Counted from the stretch's first letter, positions 29,205 through 32,000 are shown. The stretch is DNA of 32,000 nucleotides from an uncultured Candidatus Saccharibacteria bacterium (GCA_964543385.1 CAZIYE010000001.1:240001-272000), one strand, 5' to 3'. Notes: generated from the sequence alone by a model not told the origin. Made by a program: numbers and translations.

Positions 29205-29960
29205 CTACTGATTGCGCCGCTGTAATATTTCTTCAGCTTTTTTTAGTTGCTCAGGATTATTTATACCGAGACCCTCACCAATCTCAGAGACAGGAATACA
29301 TAAGACTTTTTTGTTTTGATTTGCAGCAATTTTTATCATGTCGGTTAGGTAATATTCCCCTTGAGCATTATTGGTGCTCAATTTATCATAATTACCCCAA
29401 AACCAATCAGCATCAAAGATATAAAAGCCAGGATTACACTCCTCGATATCTAGTTGTTCCTCACTGCAATCTTTTTGCTCAACAATATCAACTACATGAT
29501 TGCTTTCATCCTTAATAATTCGCCCAAAAGCCCAAAATCGAGGATTATTAAAAACTACCGAAAGCATAGCTATTGTAGGCTTCTCCTTTTCATGGAGATC
29601 AATCAGCCTCCTAACAGTTTCCGGTTTATACAATGGATTGTCGCCATAGAAGACTATTATAGATTCTGCTTTGCCTTTAAGCACACTCCTTGCTTGGGCT
29701 GCTGCATGGCCAGTACCAAGTTGTTGTTCTTGCACTGCGTACTCAACTTCGTCGCCAAAATATTCTTCAATAAGCTCTTTTCTATATCCCACAACCAAAA
29801 CAACCTTTTTTATGCCAGCATCTTTTATTAATTTGACGCTATGATATATCACTGGCTTTCCAGCCGCCTCAAACATAACTTTTGGAATTGGCGAGGCTAC
29901 ACCCTCATTCATTCTAGTCCCCTTGCCCGCAGCAAGTATTACAGCAGCATATTTCTCCAT
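29205..29960 (-). CDS. GlmU-like sugar-1-phosphate uridylyltransferase (N-terminal pyrophosphorylase domain only), 251 aa
   Basis: AVILAAGKGTRM, EQQLGTGHAAAQA, VFYGDNPL and GEYYLTDMI match GlmU uridyltransferase motifs. The ORF ends without a left-handed beta-helix acetyltransferase domain. AAGGAG lies 6 nt upstream of the ATG. Confidence 0.8.
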   Translation of the reverse strand: MEKYAAVILAAGKGTRMNEGVASPIPKVMFEAAGKPVIYHSVKLIKDAGIKKVVLVVGYRKELIEEYFGDEVEYAVQEQQLGTGHAAAQARSVLKGKAESIIVFYGDNPLYKPETVRRLIDLHEKEKPTIAMLSVVFNNPRFWAFGRIIKDESNHVVDIVEQKDCSEEQLDIEECNPGFYIFDADWFWGNYDKLSTNNAQGEYYLTDMIKIAANQNKKVLCIPVSEIGEGLGINNPEQLKKAEEILQRRNQ

Positions 29961-30028
29961 GCGATGCTCCTTGATCTTAAAATTAGTTAACGATTCGAGT
30001 ATAGCAAAAAATTATTATAAAACGAAAG

Positions 30029-30059
30029 GGCGAAACACCTATTTTAAAGGTGTTTCGCC
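30029..30059 (-). terminator. terminator hairpin downstream of the 101-aa gene
   Basis: Perfect 12-bp stem ggcgaaacacct (30029-30040) / aggtgtttcgcc (30048-30059). Minus sense is followed by ctttcgtttta. Confidence 0.65.
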
Positions 30060-30065
30060 GGCCAT

Positions 30066-30371
30066 TCACCAAGCATAGTGAGCTCGTGTCCCCCTTTTTT
30101 TATCTTGTCCCTTGCAAATAGCAAAGAGCTGACGTGCAAACAGGATTTCGATAGTCGAAAAATCTGTAAGCTGTGCGACTAAATCCTCTTGGCAAGTCGC
30201 ACCATGATTGATCAAATTGATCACCTGTTGGGCCTTTTCGCCCAATAGAACGATCTGACCAACCGCATGAGGTCTTCTGGATTCTGGTAGCCCCATGATG
30301 GAAGCCACAAGATCAGCAGTTGCATTATCAAGCATCGATGCTTCCCCTTCTCTGCTATCTGGTTCGGACAT
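30066..30371 (-). CDS. hypothetical protein, 101 aa, GC-rich relative to host
   Basis: ATG 30371 with GGGGGG 7 nt upstream, and its own downstream terminator. I recognise no motif (MSEPDSREGEASMLDNATADLVASIMGLPE...). Confidence 0.6.
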   Translation of the reverse strand: MSEPDSREGEASMLDNATADLVASIMGLPESRRPHAVGQIVLLGEKAQQVINLINHGATCQEDLVAQLTDFSTIEILFARQLFAICKGQDKKRGTRAHYAW

Positions 30372-30400
30372 AAAATGTCCCCCCTTTTGTTTGATATACT

Positions 30401-30428
30401 GAGATCCGATAGCTACCTATCCGATCTC
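30401..30428. repeat. near-perfect 12-bp inverted repeat upstream of the 101-aa gene (operator or 5' hairpin candidate)
   Basis: gagatccgatag (30401-30412), loop ctac, ctatccgatctc (30417-30428); 11 of 12 positions pair. It lies immediately upstream of a TATATC -10-like box (30398-30393, minus). Confidence 0.5.
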
Positions 30429-30593
30429 TCCAGACAAACAAAAAACTGGCCCAAGCCAGCTATTTATTCACTATTATTAATTTATAATTCGACTACACAA
30501 AAAATGCCGGCTTTACCAGATAATCAGATTGCCACCACCAATTTTGTGAATGATTAATCATTTCTAATATATTAACATAAGCGATAATAATTT

Positions 30594-30629
30594 AAAAAGT
30601 GGGTGGGGCCGCTTATTAGGCGGCCACCC
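30594..30629 (-). terminator. GC-rich terminator hairpin downstream of the 86-aa gene
   Basis: gggtgg(gg)ccgc (30601-30612) / gcggccaccc (30620-30629), a 6+4 bp stem with a 2-nt bulge. Minus sense is followed by acTTTTTaaatt. Confidence 0.65.
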
Positions 30630-30644
30630 GGTCGAAAGAATGTC

Positions 30645-30905
30645 TTAATTGCATAATGCAATCCTCTGACATTCAAGATGATGGATTGGATAGTCCTTCA
30701 TCAGAAAATAATAACGAGTTATCGCCTTGAGGCGCTCATTCAAGATGATGCCACACCGAGCAAATGCGTCAAAAGCATCACTTTCGCTTGATGCAGCAAG
30801 AACAACTGGGGGTAAGAATTCTTTGGCTAATGCCATTAACTCTTTGCCGCTAATAACCGACCTATCCTTGGAAGAACGATCAGGACGGCAGAAATAGCTA
30901 CTCAT
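30645..30905 (-). CDS. hypothetical protein, 86 aa, GC-rich relative to host
   Basis: ATG 30905 with AAAGGAG 7 nt upstream, a TGTATAAT box about 25 nt further upstream, and its own terminator. No family recognised (MSSYFCRPDRSSKDRSVISGKELMALAKEF...). Confidence 0.6.
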   Translation of the reverse strand: MSSYFCRPDRSSKDRSVISGKELMALAKEFLPPVVLAASSESDAFDAFARCGIILNERLKAITRYYFLMKDYPIHHLECQRIALCN

Positions 30906-30931
30906 CACACAGCTCCTTTGGGGTTTTTGGT

Positions 30932-30939
30932 ATTATACA
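30932..30939 (-). promoter_or_regulatory. candidate -10 (TGTATAAT) for the 86-aa gene
   Basis: Minus strand reads gtcgcTGTATAATacc. The -35 is weak. Confidence 0.4.
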
Positions 30940-30971
30940 GCGACTTGCATAAGCAAATCGCCATAAATAAC

Positions 30972-30994
30972 AAAAAATCTGGCCTTTTGGCCAG
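30972..30994 (-). terminator. terminator hairpin (minus sense)
   Basis: ctggcc (30979-30984), loop tttt, ggccag (30989-30994). Minus sense is followed by aTTTTTTg. Confidence 0.6.
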
Positions 30995-31028
30995 CTTTGT
31001 TAAATTTTTTTTATAACTTTATGAACTT

Positions 31029-31142
31029 TTAATTAAAAATTGCTGGCCTTTGGTCAGATGTAAAGTAAAAGTAAAACCAGTTTTTAGTAGTAATAATATT
31101 CATCGATATAATCAATCTAGCAAATCATCATTTTGATGTCAA
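31029..31142 (-). ncRNA. mini transcription unit: promoter, ~75-nt transcript (sRNA or 24-codon near-leaderless ORF), terminator
   Basis: Minus strand: TTGACA (31142-31137), 17 nt, TAGATT (31119-31114). ATG at 31103 (MNIITTKNWFYFYFTSDQRPAIFN, stop 31029-31031). Hairpin ctgacc aaa ggccag (31057-31043) followed by caATTTTTaatt. Confidence 0.35.
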
Positions 31143-31160
31143 TTAAACAGCTTGGGTGAC

Positions 31161-31196
31161 GGGAGAGTGCTGTATACATGTTGCCAGCACTCTCCC
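31161..31196 (-). terminator. 12-bp GC-rich stem-loop immediately downstream of the 52-aa ORF (terminator candidate without a T-run)
   Basis: gggagagtgctg (31161-31172) / cagcactctccc (31185-31196), with a 12-nt loop. Confidence 0.45.
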
Positions 31197-31201
31197 CGAC
31201 C

Positions 31202-31360
31202 TTACATTTGAATTGTCGCCGGATCCTTTAGGCACTTGCCCTTAGGATGATGGCGACGGCACTTGGGACACCACACGGGGATGTCCACGCCATCAGATGG
31301 CGTTGAGGGGGGAATCCATGGTTGCCGCTTTCGCGGCATCTCAGAGGGGGTTGTCGGCAT
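31202..31360 (-). CDS. small Pro/Lys/Arg-rich protein with a CxxC...C motif, 52 aa (internal start of the 85-aa track ORF)
   Basis: ATG 31360 lies 7 nt after GGAG and 4 nt after the stop of the upstream 143-aa gene (GGAGTGAAATCATG). Translation: MPTTPSEMPRKRQPWIPPSTPSDGVDIPVWCPKCRRHHPKGKCLKDPATIQM. The composition is somewhat frame-artefact-like, so confidence is low. Confidence 0.4.
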   Translation of the reverse strand: MPTTPSEMPRKRQPWIPPSTPSDGVDIPVWCPKCRRHHPKGKCLKDPATIQM

Positions 31361-31364
31361 GATT

Positions 31365-31796
31365 TCACTCCAACTGATAAGAGGTGTAGCCCACCTCGGC
31401 GATACGGCGGGGAACGACGTCCCACGAGTTGGGACAGACAGTGCACTGGTAATGACCATTGCTGGTCATGATACCATTGTTCGCGCGACACTCAGTGCAG
31501 TACCTGTCGGTCAATCGGAACTTCTCACCATTTCCGATAGCATAGGCCGGGAAACGATGCCCGAAGATGTTGGGGAATACCGTTCCTCCGAAGAGACGGA
31601 CGTTGATGTGACCGTCACTGGTTTCTACGAAGGCGTCAGGGATGACCAGCATCCTGAGATGGCGATTGTGCATCCATGCATTAGTCATTACCAATTCCGG
31701 TATGTTAGGAAGACAGTCATTGAAACGCTCCCCAGAGCGAACGATGATCGAGCCGATCGGTTTGATACGGCTCTTAGGGCGGTGACGATTCGGCAT
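31365..31796 (-). CDS. hypothetical protein with a C-terminal zinc-ribbon (CxxC-x15-CxxC), 143 aa
   Basis: AAGGAG lies 7 nt upstream of ATG 31796. There is a strong C-ending codon bias in this frame: ATC x9 vs ATT 0, TTC x6 vs TTT 0, GAC x5 vs GAT 0, by my hand translation. Zinc ribbon: RYCTECRANNGIMTSNGHYQCTVCPNSW. About 55% G+C. Confidence 0.7.
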   Translation of the reverse strand: MPNRHRPKSRIKPIGSIIVRSGERFNDCLPNIPELVMTNAWMHNRHLRMLVIPDAFVETSDGHINVRLFGGTVFPNIFGHRFPAYAIGNGEKFRLTDRYCTECRANNGIMTSNGHYQCTVCPNSWDVVPRRIAEVGYTSYQLE

Positions 31797-31858
31797 AACA
31801 GGACTCCTTTGTCAGGGGATTTGACGAACAAATTCGTCTATATGAGGTATATAGCAAA

Positions 31859-31897
31859 ATAAGCAATAAATCAAGTTATGAGATAATTATTGCTTAT
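31859..31897. repeat. perfect 11-bp inverted repeat upstream of the 143-aa gene
   Basis: ataagcaataa (31859-31869), 17 nt, ttattgcttat (31887-31897). A second small IR, gacgaa caaa ttcgtc (31823-31838), lies in the leader. Confidence 0.55.
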
Positions 31898-32000
31898 GAC
31901 AATTCTTTATCGAGTTCACTAAATTTATTACCTGCCAAAAATTGGTTTGAGATTATCTGTGTTACTTCCTTGCCAAATCATTTAGGAATCTCAAAATTTC

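What the first reader, a model, noticed from the sequence alone, without database searches (positions are those of the whole stretch)
30066..31900. GC-rich island of four small unknown genes, each with a strong SD, interleaved with an unusual density of terminator hairpins
Immediately after the GlmU-like gene, the coding composition jumps to about 55% G+C by hand count at 31561-31620. The spacers stay very AT-rich.

The island holds four ORFs of 101, 86, 143 and 52 aa, all on the minus strand. All have strong SDs (GGGGGG, AAAGGAG, AAGGAG, GGAG). I recognise no family in any of them.

Between and around them I count six minus-sense hairpins: 31161-31196, 31043-31057, 30979-30994, 30601-30629, 30446-30459 and 30029-30059. 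There are also two candidate operators: a 12-bp IR at 30401-30428 and an 11-bp IR at 31859-31897.

Several terminators are separated by stretches without any ORF, so there are more transcription units than proteins. This pattern fits an accessory or foreign insert such as a prophage or plasmid remnant, a defence or toxin-antitoxin-like locus, or host-derived cargo. The window ends before its right boundary, and no integrase, tRNA or direct-repeat boundary is visible.
Basis: partly seen in the sequence, partly recalled or inferred. Interest (0 to 1): 0.65.

Follow-up and report, generated by a model that had tools for sequence, protein, structure and literature searches.

The report
Attenuator-gated orphan gene islet
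A 1.9-kb fast-changing stretch of a tiny Berkelbacteria-like genome holds four small genes with no known relatives, and its "surplus" terminator hairpins are parts of two leader-peptide switches from a conserved family I could not find described, which probably turn two of these genes on when aromatic amino acids or tryptophan run short.

Summary
The four ORFs, their Shine-Dalgarno sites, the hairpins and the inverted repeats are real. Terminator-like hairpins are denser here than anywhere else in the 0.9-Mb genome. Only ORF143 and ORF52 (31202-31796) are truly GC-rich (GC3 0.60-0.65 against 0.34). ORF101 and ORF86 are only mildly elevated.

The island fills a variable slot between Fpg plus a decayed CYTH gene and the NTP-transferase/RecO genes. 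I found no integrase, att repeat, phage, plasmid, defence or toxin-antitoxin signal.

The extra hairpins belong to two paralogous leaders. Each has a promoter, a (near-)leaderless 22-24-codon mini-ORF with an aromatic or Trp run (NWFYFYF, NWWW), a hairpin at the mini-ORF end, a terminator, then SD and gene.

A covariance model finds this leader in 36 of 151 genomes of the class. The reading frame is kept in 34 of 34 copies. Covariation preserves both hairpins and the 2:3 antiterminator. Some copies carry Leu, Ile or Asn runs instead. Two relatives show cognate cargo: a Leu leader before a LeuA allosteric domain, and an aromatic leader before chorismate mutase.

Best reading: ribosome-mediated attenuators gating orphan small proteins. 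This scan noted a similar leaderless aromatic attenuator family earlier in Saccharibacteria-like DNA.

The parts
31912..32000 (-). 3' part of a decayed CYTH gene. The pseudogene runs to about 32369, beyond the window. It marks the right border of the island; fpg follows.
   Evidence: tblastn with CYTH proteins of relatives gives 46-49% identity spread over three frames with two in-frame stops. An intact paralogue lies at C1:52993-53478.
31859..31897 (.). 11-bp perfect inverted repeat with a 17-nt loop. It is followed by TGCTATATA (-10-like) about 50 nt upstream of the ORF143 SD. It may be an operator or a 5' hairpin; its function is unassigned.
31365..31796 (-). ORF143, an orphan protein with a C-terminal CxxC-x15-CxxC zinc ribbon. 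SD AAAGGAG lies 7 nt upstream. GC 53%, GC3 0.65.
   Evidence: No family or homologue was found. A codon-shuffle test favours this strand over the public 193-aa call on the + strand.
31202..31360 (-). ORF52, a Pro-rich CxxC...C micro-protein. Its GGAG SD overlaps the end of ORF143, so the two are probably co-transcribed and coupled.
31161..31196 (-). 12-bp GC-rich hairpin after ORF52 with no U-run. It marks the end of the ORF143-ORF52 unit.
31114..31142 (-). Promoter of leader 1: TTGACA, 17 nt, TG-n-TAGATT. The ATG of the mini-ORF lies 10 nt after the -10 box.
   Evidence: 10 of 12 matches, with TG. The same promoter-ATG arrangement occurs in about 30 of 34 family members, although the promoter was not part of the model.
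31029..31103 (-). Leader peptide 1: MNIITTKNWFYFYFTSDQRPAIFN, with six consecutive aromatic codons.
   Evidence: It is conserved upstream of the ORF86 homologues of G007 and G008.
31043..31057 (-). Leader 1, regions 1:2 (CUGACC/GGCCAG). This is a weak hairpin with a conserved A.C mismatch, followed by a U-run, inside the end of the mini-ORF.
   Evidence: -2.1 kcal/mol
30979..30995 (-). Leader 1, regions 3:4 (GCUGGCC/GGCCAG plus AUUUUUUGUU), the terminator. Region 3 is perfectly complementary to region 2 (antiterminator, -13.4 against -10.3 kcal/mol).
30939..30962 (-). Hairpin C of leader 1 (10 bp), followed at once by TATAAT and then the SD of ORF86.
   Evidence: Analogous hairpins are seen in G007 and G008.
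30645..30905 (-). ORF86, a small helical orphan. Distant homologues sit in the same slot in G007 and G008.
30601..30629 (-). GC-rich terminator hairpin of ORF86.
30493..30561 (-). Leader peptide 2: MINHSQNWWWQSDYLVKPAFFV, with three Trp codons. TATATT lies 4 nt before the ATG. There is no good -35 box.
30507..30519 (-). Leader 2, regions 1:2 (CUGGU/GCCGG plus U-run).
30444..30461 (-). Leader 2, regions 3:4, the terminator (AGCUGGC/GCCAGUU plus U-run). Region 3 pairs with region 2 (GCCGGC:GCUGGC, one G.U).
30401..30428 (.). Hairpin C of leader 2 (12-bp inverted repeat), followed by TATATC and then the SD of ORF101.
30066..30371 (-). ORF101, an orphan with a predicted four-helix fold. SD is GGGGGG.
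30029..30059 (-). Terminator of ORF101 (12-bp stem plus U-run). It marks the left border, before the NTP-transferase gene at 29205-29960.

Best explanation
The island (about 29961-31900) is the current content of a fast-turnover slot between fpg plus a decayed CYTH gene and the NTP-transferase/recO genes of a Berkelbacteria-like CPR bacterium. It holds three minus-strand units.

Unit 1 is ORF143-ORF52, two GC-rich orphan zinc-ribbon proteins without a leader. They were probably imported recently.

Units 2 and 3 are ORF86 and ORF101. Each lies behind a copy of one conserved leader. The leader consists of:
- a sigma-70-type promoter;
- a (near-)leaderless 22-24-codon mini-ORF with a run of aromatic codons (WFYFYF) or Trp codons (WWW);
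- region 1, directly after the run;
- region 2, about 10 nt before the mini-ORF stop codon;
- region 3:4, a terminator with a U-run.

Inferred mechanism (not shown). A ribosome that reaches the stop codon covers region 2, so 3:4 forms and transcription ends. A ribosome stalled on the aromatic or Trp codons covers region 1 only, so region 2 pairs with region 3 and RNA polymerase reads into the SD-led gene. ORF86 and ORF101 would then be induced by shortage of charged aromatic tRNAs or Trp-tRNA.

Shown here: the anatomy, the family, its covariation, the conserved reading frame and the cognate cargo in relatives.
Inferred: the response to amino-acid supply. The function of the four proteins is unknown. 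They are most likely small binding or regulatory proteins.
For: Slot.
- The order fpg, NTP-transferase, recO is conserved in the family and order, but the gap is 35 bp to 7.8 kb with unrelated cargo.
- The CYTH gene is a pseudogene.

Leaders.
- The two spacers align better than all 500 shuffles (z = 5.6).
- Of 6812 mini-ORFs in the genome, the strict scan kept two with a Trp-containing aromatic run plus a hairpin. Only the focal one also has a second terminator.
- ORF86 homologues in G007 and G008 carry the same leader: MKILIAQNWFSFFFTPDQTASTF and MEYAKNNYFFFWFYSDPSASSF.

Family.
- Model R1, built from 4 leaders, finds 30 full-length hits in 27 of 151 class genomes.
- Model R2 finds 46 hits in 36 of 151.
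- Every one of 34 aligned copies starts with ATG and stays open in that frame. The other two frames are open in only 1 and 6 copies.
- The run ends a median 3 nt before region 1. The stop codon ends a median 9.5 nt after region 2.

Covariation.
- Hairpins A and B: 11 of 12 pairs show changes on both sides, and 0 of 500 shuffles reach this.
- The 2:3 antiterminator was not in the model. It is 81.5% paired against 21-49% when slid, and column pair 102-169 is AU in 14 copies and GC in 13.
- Energies for leader 1: 1:2 is -2.1, 2:3 is -13.4 and 3:4 is -10.3 kcal/mol.

Features outside the model.
- A TTGACA/extended -10 promoter with the ATG 6-8 nt after the -10 box occurs in about 30 of 34 copies.
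- An SD-led ORF follows about 50-80 nt downstream.

The same scaffold senses several amino acids.
- Runs seen: LLLLLL, IIVIIII, IITIIISIII, WWW, INININ, LLLVLL.

Cognate cargo.
- The Leu leader of G003 precedes a stand-alone LeuA allosteric domain (PF08502, E = 6e-15).
- The aromatic leader of G289 precedes chorismate mutase (PF01817, E = 2.5e-18).
Against: - There are no expression data of any kind.
- The regulated genes in the window are orphans with no visible link to aromatic amino acids.
- Hairpin 1:2 is weak (-2 to -3 kcal/mol), so termination without translation is not assured.
- Each gene also has an inverted repeat followed by a -10-like hexamer just upstream of its SD. Independent promoters could therefore bypass the leader.
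- Leader 2 has a poor promoter.
- The ATG and the U-rich run were part of the covariance model, so part of the uniformity of the hits comes from construction.
- Similarity of hairpins A and B within a leader could partly reflect concerted evolution rather than selection for 2:3 pairing.
Confidence: 0.7

Rival explanations
1. The mini-ORF units are independent small genes or small RNAs: aromatic micro-peptides, type-I-toxin-like peptides or about 70-130-nt sRNAs with tandem terminators. ORF86 and ORF101 would be driven only by their own proximal promoters, with the inverted repeats as operators. The island would then hold five or six autonomous moron-like units.
For: Each large ORF has an inverted repeat followed at once by TATAAT, TATATC or TATATA about 30-50 nt before its SD. 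Both leader hairpins carry U-runs, so most transcripts should end there. The N-terminal part of the peptides (M-K/N-x-I-x-x-K/Q-N-W-F) is fairly conserved.
Against: The runs switch between aromatic, Trp, Leu, Ile and Asn on one scaffold, which fits codon sensing and not one peptide function. Four-way covariation keeps 2:3 pairing. The leader is always followed on the same strand, at a fixed 50-80 nt, by an SD-led gene. Cargo is cognate in G003 and G289. The hydrophobic runs are too short for a membrane helix.
Confidence: 0.15
2. The island is simply decaying foreign DNA: a prophage or plasmid remnant, or a defence or toxin-antitoxin locus. Its hairpins would be leftovers without regulatory logic.
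For: Codon composition of ORF143 and ORF52 is deviant. A pseudogene lies next to it. Slot content varies. All four proteins are orphans.
Against: There is no integrase, att repeat or tRNA. There are no PHROG or PADLOC hits and no phage, plasmid, viral or metagenome relatives. The leaders are conserved with covariation across a class. The DNA is identical in several independent assemblies.
Confidence: 0.08
3. The GC-rich 600 bp (31200-31800) does not encode ORF143 and ORF52. It would instead encode the publicly called 193-aa protein on the + strand, or a structured non-coding RNA.
For: Gene callers chose the + strand ORF at 31281-31862. That frame has G1 = 0.40, a classical coding signature. 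The segment folds better than shuffles, with z = -3.7 on the minus strand and -2.8 on the plus strand. AlphaFold gives no confident fold for ORF143 (pLDDT 33).
Against: The two frames are phase-aligned antisense partners. Codon shuffles of the + ORF give an antisense ORF of at least 143 aa in 0.7% of trials, and a CxxC...CxxC motif in the longest antisense ORF in 0.08%. Shuffles of the minus ORFs give a + ORF of at least 150 aa in 54% and of at least 193 aa in 4.7%. Both minus ORFs have SD cores at 7 nt, and all neighbouring genes are on the minus strand. There is no Rfam match. The 193-aa protein has no homologue either.
Confidence: 0.1

Closest known systems
Classical ribosome-mediated leader-peptide attenuators of Proteobacteria (E. 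coli trpL, pheL-pheA, pheM-pheST, leuL, ilvL). The comparison with these rests on my own knowledge; only the Rfam search was run here.
   Same: A short ORF with a run of regulatory codons, four pairing regions with mutually exclusive 2:3 and 3:4 helices, and an intrinsic terminator before the regulated gene. A ribosome stalled at the run would mask region 1 and a ribosome at the stop codon would mask region 2. One scaffold is used for different amino acids.
   Different: No sequence or structure match to any Rfam family, so none to the leader families I recall being in Rfam. The mRNA is leaderless or nearly so. Region 1:2 is very weak, with a conserved A.C mismatch. The stop codon lies after region 2. 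The cargo is mostly orphan, GC-rich small proteins instead of biosynthetic operons. The host is a CPR bacterium.
Polycysteine-encoding leaderless short ORFs of mycobacteria, cysteine-responsive attenuators (bioRxiv 10.1101/834739)
   Same: A leaderless mRNA begins with a short ORF whose codon run senses supply of one amino acid and controls downstream genes of the same transcript.
   Different: The amino acid, the phylum and the cargo all differ. I read only its title and abstract start, so I did not compare mechanisms. Here a canonical terminator/antiterminator pair is conserved with covariation.
Leaderless aromatic-codon attenuator family noted earlier by this scan in Saccharibacteria-like genomes (note e1-2184611). 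That note names the aroR-aroF leader of Corynebacterium glutamicum as closest.
   Same: A promoter, a leaderless aromatic-rich micro-ORF of about 25 codons, and a terminator hairpin, in a CPR genome.
   Different: A different class. I could not test whether it is the same RNA family. My narrow model R1 hit only 2 of about 143 genomes of the phylum outside the class. That copy gates a racemase and a TyrRS/TrpRS-like orphan, not islet genes.
Small horizontally acquired islets and phage 'morons'; genomic islands of aquifer Patescibacteria (PMC12455944)
   Same: Self-contained promoter-SD-ORF-terminator units of deviant composition wedged between housekeeping genes, mostly of unknown function. In that study 61.6% of genes in acquired regions of Patescibacteria had no assigned function.
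   Different: No mobile-element hallmarks. Two of the three units are wired to a conserved amino-acid-sensing leader, which I have not seen reported for morons or for these islands.

Membership tests
Leader-peptide (ribosome-mediated) transcription attenuators | Short upstream ORF with a run of codons for the sensed amino acid | tested here: met
   The window has WFYFYF and WWW. In the family 34 of 34 copies are open in frame. Runs of aromatic residues, Trp, Leu, Ile and Asn occur.
Leader-peptide (ribosome-mediated) transcription attenuators | Intrinsic terminator (3:4) between the leader ORF and the regulated gene | tested here: met
   Hairpin B plus a U-run. It is 87% paired across 34 copies, with 5 of 6 pairs changed on both sides.
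Leader-peptide (ribosome-mediated) transcription attenuators | Alternative antiterminator (2:3) mutually exclusive with the terminator | tested here: met
   81.5% paired against 21-49% when slid. There are 21 cells with changes on both sides, reached by 0 of 500 shuffles. It is as stable as 3:4 or more so.
Leader-peptide (ribosome-mediated) transcription attenuators | Geometry: the stalled ribosome masks region 1 and the terminating ribosome masks region 2 | tested here: met
   The run ends a median 3 nt before region 1. The stop codon ends a median 9.5 nt after region 2.
Leader-peptide (ribosome-mediated) transcription attenuators | Cognate link between the sensed amino acid and the regulated gene | tested here: inconclusive
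   Met in two relatives: Leu leader before LeuA_dimer and aromatic leader before CM_2. Not visible for ORF86, ORF101 or most cargo, which have no Pfam families.
Leader-peptide (ribosome-mediated) transcription attenuators | Read-through responds to supply of the charged tRNA | not testable with these tools
Rfam leader families (Trp_leader, Phe_leader, Leu_leader and others) | Match to the covariance model | tested here: not met
   No hit at gathering score in the window. Nothing relevant at E <= 1 in 29900-32000.
Integrated mobile element (prophage, ICE or plasmid remnant) | Integrase or recombinase, att direct repeats, tRNA target, phage or plasmid genes | tested here: not met
   Flanks are fpg, HAD, PadR, HD and rRNA on one side and NTP-transferase and RecO on the other. 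There are no flanking direct repeats. There are no PHROG hits. There is no phage, plasmid or viral match.
Anti-phage defence or toxin-antitoxin locus | Match to a known defence or TA protein family | tested here: not met
   PADLOC, Pfam and NCBIfam give no hits for any of the four proteins.
Zinc-ribbon small proteins | Two CxxC pairs about 10-20 residues apart | tested here: met
   ORF143 has C-x2-C-x15-C-x2-C. The Pfam A2L_zn_ribbon hit is weak (E = 0.14). ORF52 has CxxC-x8-C. There is no fold support (pLDDT 33).

The most novel reading that the evidence does not exclude
Berkelbacteria-like CPR bacteria may use one modular, leaderless leader-peptide attenuator scaffold, retuned to aromatic residues, Trp, Leu, Ile or Asn, as a general amino-acid-shortage switch. 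It would drive a fast-evolving pool of GC-rich, Cys/His/Arg-rich small proteins. The 'orphan GC-rich islets' seen again and again in CPR genomes would then be starvation-induced accessory genes, perhaps used to act on the host that supplies the amino acids. The leader would be the conserved docking point at which new cargo genes are captured or exchanged.
Probability: 0.3. Interest if true: 0.85.

Novelty: new variant of a known kind. Interest (0 to 1): 0.68.

Why it matters
CPR/Patescibacteria cannot make most amino acids and live off other cells. How they sense supply is largely unknown, and their many GC-rich orphan islets have had no regulatory context.

If these leaders work as inferred, they show that classical ribosome-mediated attenuation exists in this radiation, in a leaderless form. 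They give a testable condition, aromatic or Trp limitation, under which otherwise uninterpretable orphan genes should be expressed. They also provide an RNA model that can be used to find further starvation-controlled genes.

I found no paper that joins leader-peptide attenuation with CPR or Patescibacteria in the searchable library.

The analysis also corrects a probable strand error in the public gene call, a 193-aa shadow ORF.

Tried and rejected
**Homology and family searches**
- Family searches (Pfam, PHROGs, NCBIfam, PADLOC) for all four proteins and the + strand ORF gave nothing.
- Word-index homology searches found only the query itself for ORF143, the 193-aa ORF and ORF86.
- A full HMMER search of ORF101 against 1.84 billion representatives found only a 99% strain variant and a 2854-aa repeat protein. 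The latter's E-value of 3e-10 is summed over 11 low-complexity repeats, and I reject it as spurious.
- tblastn-type scans of viral and metagenome contigs for ORF143 gave nothing.
- DNA searches against phages and plasmids gave nothing.
- A PDB sequence search gave nothing.
- There are no paralogues of the four ORFs in the genome.

**Structure**
- AlphaFold single-sequence prediction of ORF143 is uninformative (pLDDT 33).
- ORF101 is predicted as four helices (pLDDT 63), with no Foldseek match at E < 1.

**Ideas tested and dropped**
- CTGGCC...GGCCAG as a genome-wide repeat family: it is not one.
- Direct repeats as att sites: none found.
- Small zinc-ribbon ORFs in the same slot of relatives as homologues of ORF52 or ORF143: no significant similarity.
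- Cargo proteins strongly depleted in aromatic residues: the depletion is mild (7.2% against 9.1%) and is explained by GC content.
- The leaders replacing a missing stringent response: dropped, because the genome has a RelA/SpoT homologue.

**Tool unavailable**


Full report
**Setting**

The window is C1:240001-272000 of a 902,808-bp, four-contig genome with 38.3% GC. Its closest named relatives are uncultured Candidatus Berkelbacteria and 'Patescibacteria group' MAGs.

Extending the sequence to the right shows what borders the finding:
- a 92-aa ORF;
- fpg/mutM, a HAD hydrolase, padR and an HD protein;
- 5S and 23S rRNA.

To the left lie an NTP-transferase (GlmU-N-like) gene and recO.

**Check of the observation**

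- *ORFs and SD sites.* The four minus-strand ORFs of 101, 86, 143 and 52 aa exist. Each has an SD core 7 nt before its start codon. The 16S rRNA has the canonical anti-SD. Only about a third of long ORFs in this genome have such a core.
- *Hairpins.* All the listed hairpins and inverted repeats are present. One more hairpin, at 30507-30519, was missed. Terminator-like sites number 8, against 1.8 +/- 1.2 in shuffles. In my own genome-wide scan this locus is the densest of the whole genome, with 8-9 per 2.1 kb against 2.2 +/- 1.6.
- *Composition.* The GC claim is only partly right. The stretch 31201-31800 is 51-58% GC. GC3 is 0.646 for ORF143 (z = 4.9) and 0.604 for ORF52. ORF101 and ORF86 (GC3 0.40 and 0.41) are about one standard deviation above the genome mean of 0.342.
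- *Uniqueness.* The genome contains 64 segments of at least 50% GC over 300 bp, so a GC-rich islet is a recurrent feature here and not a singular event.

**Boundaries and turnover**

The order fpg, NTP-transferase, recO is conserved across the family and order. The gap between fpg and the NTP-transferase gene varies widely:

| Genome | Gap |
|---|---|
| G004 | 35 bp |
| G013 | 46 bp |
| G011 | 0.44 kb |
| G001 (same genus) | 1.4 kb |
| G015 | 2.8 kb |
| G008 and G010 | 7-8 kb |

The cargo in these gaps is largely unrelated between genomes.

In this genome the 2.46-kb gap holds the island plus a CYTH gene. That gene has decayed: it is spread over three frames with two in-frame stops, at about 31912-32369. 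An intact paralogue sits at C1:52993-53478.

The same DNA is present, letter for letter, in independent Logan and JGI assemblies, so it is not an assembly artefact.

I found no integrase, tRNA or att-like repeat, and no phage, plasmid, defence or TA signature.

**Are the genes real, and on which strand?**

Public gene calls place a 193-aa gene on the + strand across 31281-31862. That frame and ORF143 are phase-aligned antisense partners.

I tested the two readings with codon shuffles.
- If the + ORF were real, an antisense ATG-ORF of at least 143 aa would arise in 0.7% of shuffles. A CxxC...CxxC motif would appear in the longest antisense ORF in 0.08% of shuffles.
- If the minus ORFs are real, a + ORF of at least 150 aa arises in 54% of shuffles and one of at least 193 aa in 4.7%.

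Other points also favour the minus strand:
- two correctly spaced SD sites;
- the tight ORF143-ORF52 junction;
- the minus-strand orientation of all neighbouring genes.

I therefore read the 193-aa call as a shadow ORF, with about 10% doubt.

None of the proteins has a detectable family, homologue or confident fold. The exception is ORF86. It has distant homologues in the same slot in G007 (E = 2e-7 in the genome search; pairwise E = 5e-11) and in G008.

**The surplus terminators**

The two spacers are paralogous (local alignment z = 5.6) and share one architecture. In the ORF86 spacer the elements run as follows.

1. A near-consensus promoter, TTGACA-17-TGnTAGATT, at 31142-31114.
2. Ten nt later, a 24-codon ORF, MNIITTKNWFYFYFTSDQRPAIFN, at 31103-31029.
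3. Region 1 (CUGACC), 4 nt after the aromatic run.
4. Region 2 (GGCCAGC), 14 nt before the stop codon.
5. Forty-eight AU-rich nt.
6. Region 3 (GCUGGCC) and region 4 (GGCCAG plus a U-run).
7. A third hairpin, then SD and ORF86.

Region 2 is perfectly complementary to region 3. The folding energies for this leader are -2.1 kcal/mol for 1:2, -13.4 for 2:3 and -10.3 for 3:4.

The ORF101 spacer repeats the design with MINHSQNWWWQSDYLVKPAFFV at 30561-30493.

In a genome-wide scan of 6812 mini-ORFs, only two met the strict criterion of a Trp-containing aromatic run followed by a hairpin with a U-run at the ORF's end. Only the focal one also had a second terminator within 120 nt. Mini-ORF 1 fails the strict stem rule only because of its A.C mismatch.

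**Comparative support**

The ORF86 homologues of G007 and G008 are preceded by the same cassette, although the proteins are only about 30% identical:
- a TTGACT promoter with an extended -10 box;
- an ATG 7 nt after the -10 box;
- the leader peptides MKILIAQNWFSFFFTPDQTASTF and MEYAKNNYFFFWFYSDPSASSF;
- the hairpins.

*Distribution.*
- A covariance model from the four leaders (R1) found 30 full-length hits in 27 of 151 genomes of the class.
- The model rebuilt from 34 copies (R2) found 46 hits in 36 of 151, concentrated in the window's own order, where 18 of 32 genomes have it.
- Model R1 hit only 2 of about 143 other genomes of the phylum.
- R2 also found further copies just downstream of fpg in named Berkelbacteria MAGs.

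*Reading frame and geometry.*
- All 34 aligned copies begin with ATG and are open in that frame to a stop near region 2. The other two frames are open in 1 and 6 copies.
- The codon run ends a median 3 nt before region 1. The stop codon ends a median 9.5 nt after region 2.

*Covariation.*
- Hairpins A and B show changes on both sides in 11 of 12 pairs, which 0 of 500 shuffles reach. They are 83% paired, against 14-48% when slid.
- The 2:3 helix was not part of the model. It is 81.5% paired against 21-49% when slid. Column pair 102-169 is split AU 14 and GC 13, so regions 1 to 4 change together.
- A conserved A.C mismatch keeps 1:2 weak.

*Features outside the model that recur.*
- A strong promoter with the ATG 6-8 nt after the -10 box, which implies a leaderless mRNA, occurs in about 30 of 34 copies.
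- An SD-led ORF of 55-170 aa follows about 50-80 nt downstream. It is usually more GC-rich than its locus, at 0.45-0.64.

**Link to amino acids**

The same scaffold carries other codon runs:

| Codon run | Where |
|---|---|
| LLLLLL | G003 |
| IIVIIII | G030 |
| IITIIISIII | G026 |
| WWW | G009 |
| INININ and LLLVLL | a second tandem pair in this genome, C1:223292-224014 |

Two copies have cognate cargo:
- The Leu-run leader of G003 precedes a stand-alone LeuA allosteric (leucine-binding) domain protein (PF08502, E = 6e-15).
- The aromatic leader of G289, from another class, precedes chorismate mutase (PF01817, E = 2.5e-18).

Most other cargo proteins have no Pfam family. As a pool they are enriched in Cys (3-fold), His and Arg, and several are zinc ribbons.

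**Mechanism**

Shown: the anatomy, its conservation, the covariation of both alternative structures, the conservation of the reading frame, the diversity of codon runs and the cognate examples.

Inferred:
- A ribosome that translates to the stop codon masks region 2, so 3:4 forms and transcription terminates.
- A ribosome stalled on the run masks region 1 only, so 2:3 forms and polymerase reads into ORF86 or ORF101.

This is the logic of classical trp/phe-type attenuation (my own knowledge of the E. coli systems), here on a leaderless mRNA. A precedent for leaderless codon-run attenuators exists in mycobacteria (10.1101/834739).

Weak points:
- there are no expression data;
- 1:2 is weak;
- proximal -10-like boxes preceded by inverted repeats could give leader-independent transcription;
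- leader 2 has a poor promoter;
- the cargo in the window is uninterpretable.

**Comparison with what is known, and novelty**

The mechanism is of a known kind. The RNA matches no Rfam family. I found no paper that joins leader-peptide attenuation with CPR, Patescibacteria or Saccharibacteria.

Acquired regions with mostly unannotated genes are documented in Patescibacteria (PMC12455944).

This scan has noted many GC-rich orphan islets in CPR genomes. It also noted one leaderless aromatic-codon attenuator family in Saccharibacteria-like DNA (note e1-2184611). Neither element is therefore new to the scan. The new point here is the connection between them: a multi-amino-acid leader scaffold that gates orphan islet genes. 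I rate this a new variant of a known kind.

Noticed in passing
window 31912-32000 and on to about 32369 (L002 3912-4369): A CYTH-domain gene has decayed into a pseudogene, with frameshifts over three frames and two in-frame stops. An intact paralogue lies at G000:C1:52993-53478. Gene callers report only a 79- or 92-aa fragment.
   Followed up: yes
window 31281-31862 (+): The public gene call here (193 aa, + strand) is probably a shadow ORF antisense to ORF143 and ORF52. The exact ORF143 and ORF52 sequences are absent from the 15-billion-protein collection.
   Followed up: yes
G000:C1:223292-224438 (outside the window): A second tandem pair of the same leader family sits in this genome. The mini-ORFs are MKNYRNTINININHPSAANY (Asn/Ile run) and MKQNHKNLLLVLLISPTQRW (Leu run). 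Each has a consensus promoter and is followed by an SD-led orphan of 110 or 124 aa (GC 0.45-0.47). A stand-alone chorismate mutase gene lies convergent at 224557-224796.
   Followed up: partly
L077 (G003:C5:5250-5384 and downstream): A Leu-run leader (MINKYLQNLALLLLLLHSSGGDFVLR) precedes a 115-aa stand-alone LeuA allosteric domain protein (PF08502). A free-standing leucine-binding domain under a Leu attenuator is an odd pairing that deserves its own look.
   Followed up: partly
L079 (G289:C12:8918-9047 and downstream): In a genome of another class of the phylum, an aromatic leader of the same family (MQNLINKIWFSFYFYTDY) lies upstream of a chorismate mutase type II gene.
   Followed up: partly
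whole genome G000: There are 64 segments of at least 50% GC over 300 bp in a 38% GC genome. Apart from the rRNA genes, many coincide with hypothetical ORFs, some with lipoprotein-like signal peptides. Nine of the ATG-ORFs of at least 150 aa have GC3 >= 0.6.
   Followed up: partly
L064 (G039:C71, about 190 nt after the leader): A GIY-YIG nuclease gene (PF01541, E = 5e-19) sits where the leader's cargo gene would be expected. It may be a selfish insertion into a cassette.
   Followed up: no
L053, L056, L052, L048, window 30645-30905: Cargo proteins of several leaders share a C-terminal motif ((R/K)-(Y/F)-x..-P-R-Y-H / H-H-L, as in ...VSRFLVSMTKPRYHRLFP and ...ITRYYFLMKDYPIHHLE). This suggests an ORF86-like superfamily wider than BLAST shows.
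   Followed up: no
window 30939-30962, 30401-30428, 31859-31897: All three transcription units have an inverted repeat of 10-12 bp followed within 1-5 nt by a -10-like hexamer (TATAAT, TATATC, TATATA) about 30-50 nt before the SD. The repeat sequences differ. Analogous hairpins occur in G007 and G008. Their role is unexplained.
   Followed up: partly
window 30066-30371: The ORF101 coding RNA folds much better than shuffles (z = -4.4 on the minus strand), including an 18-nt imperfect inverted repeat at 30131-30198.
   Followed up: no
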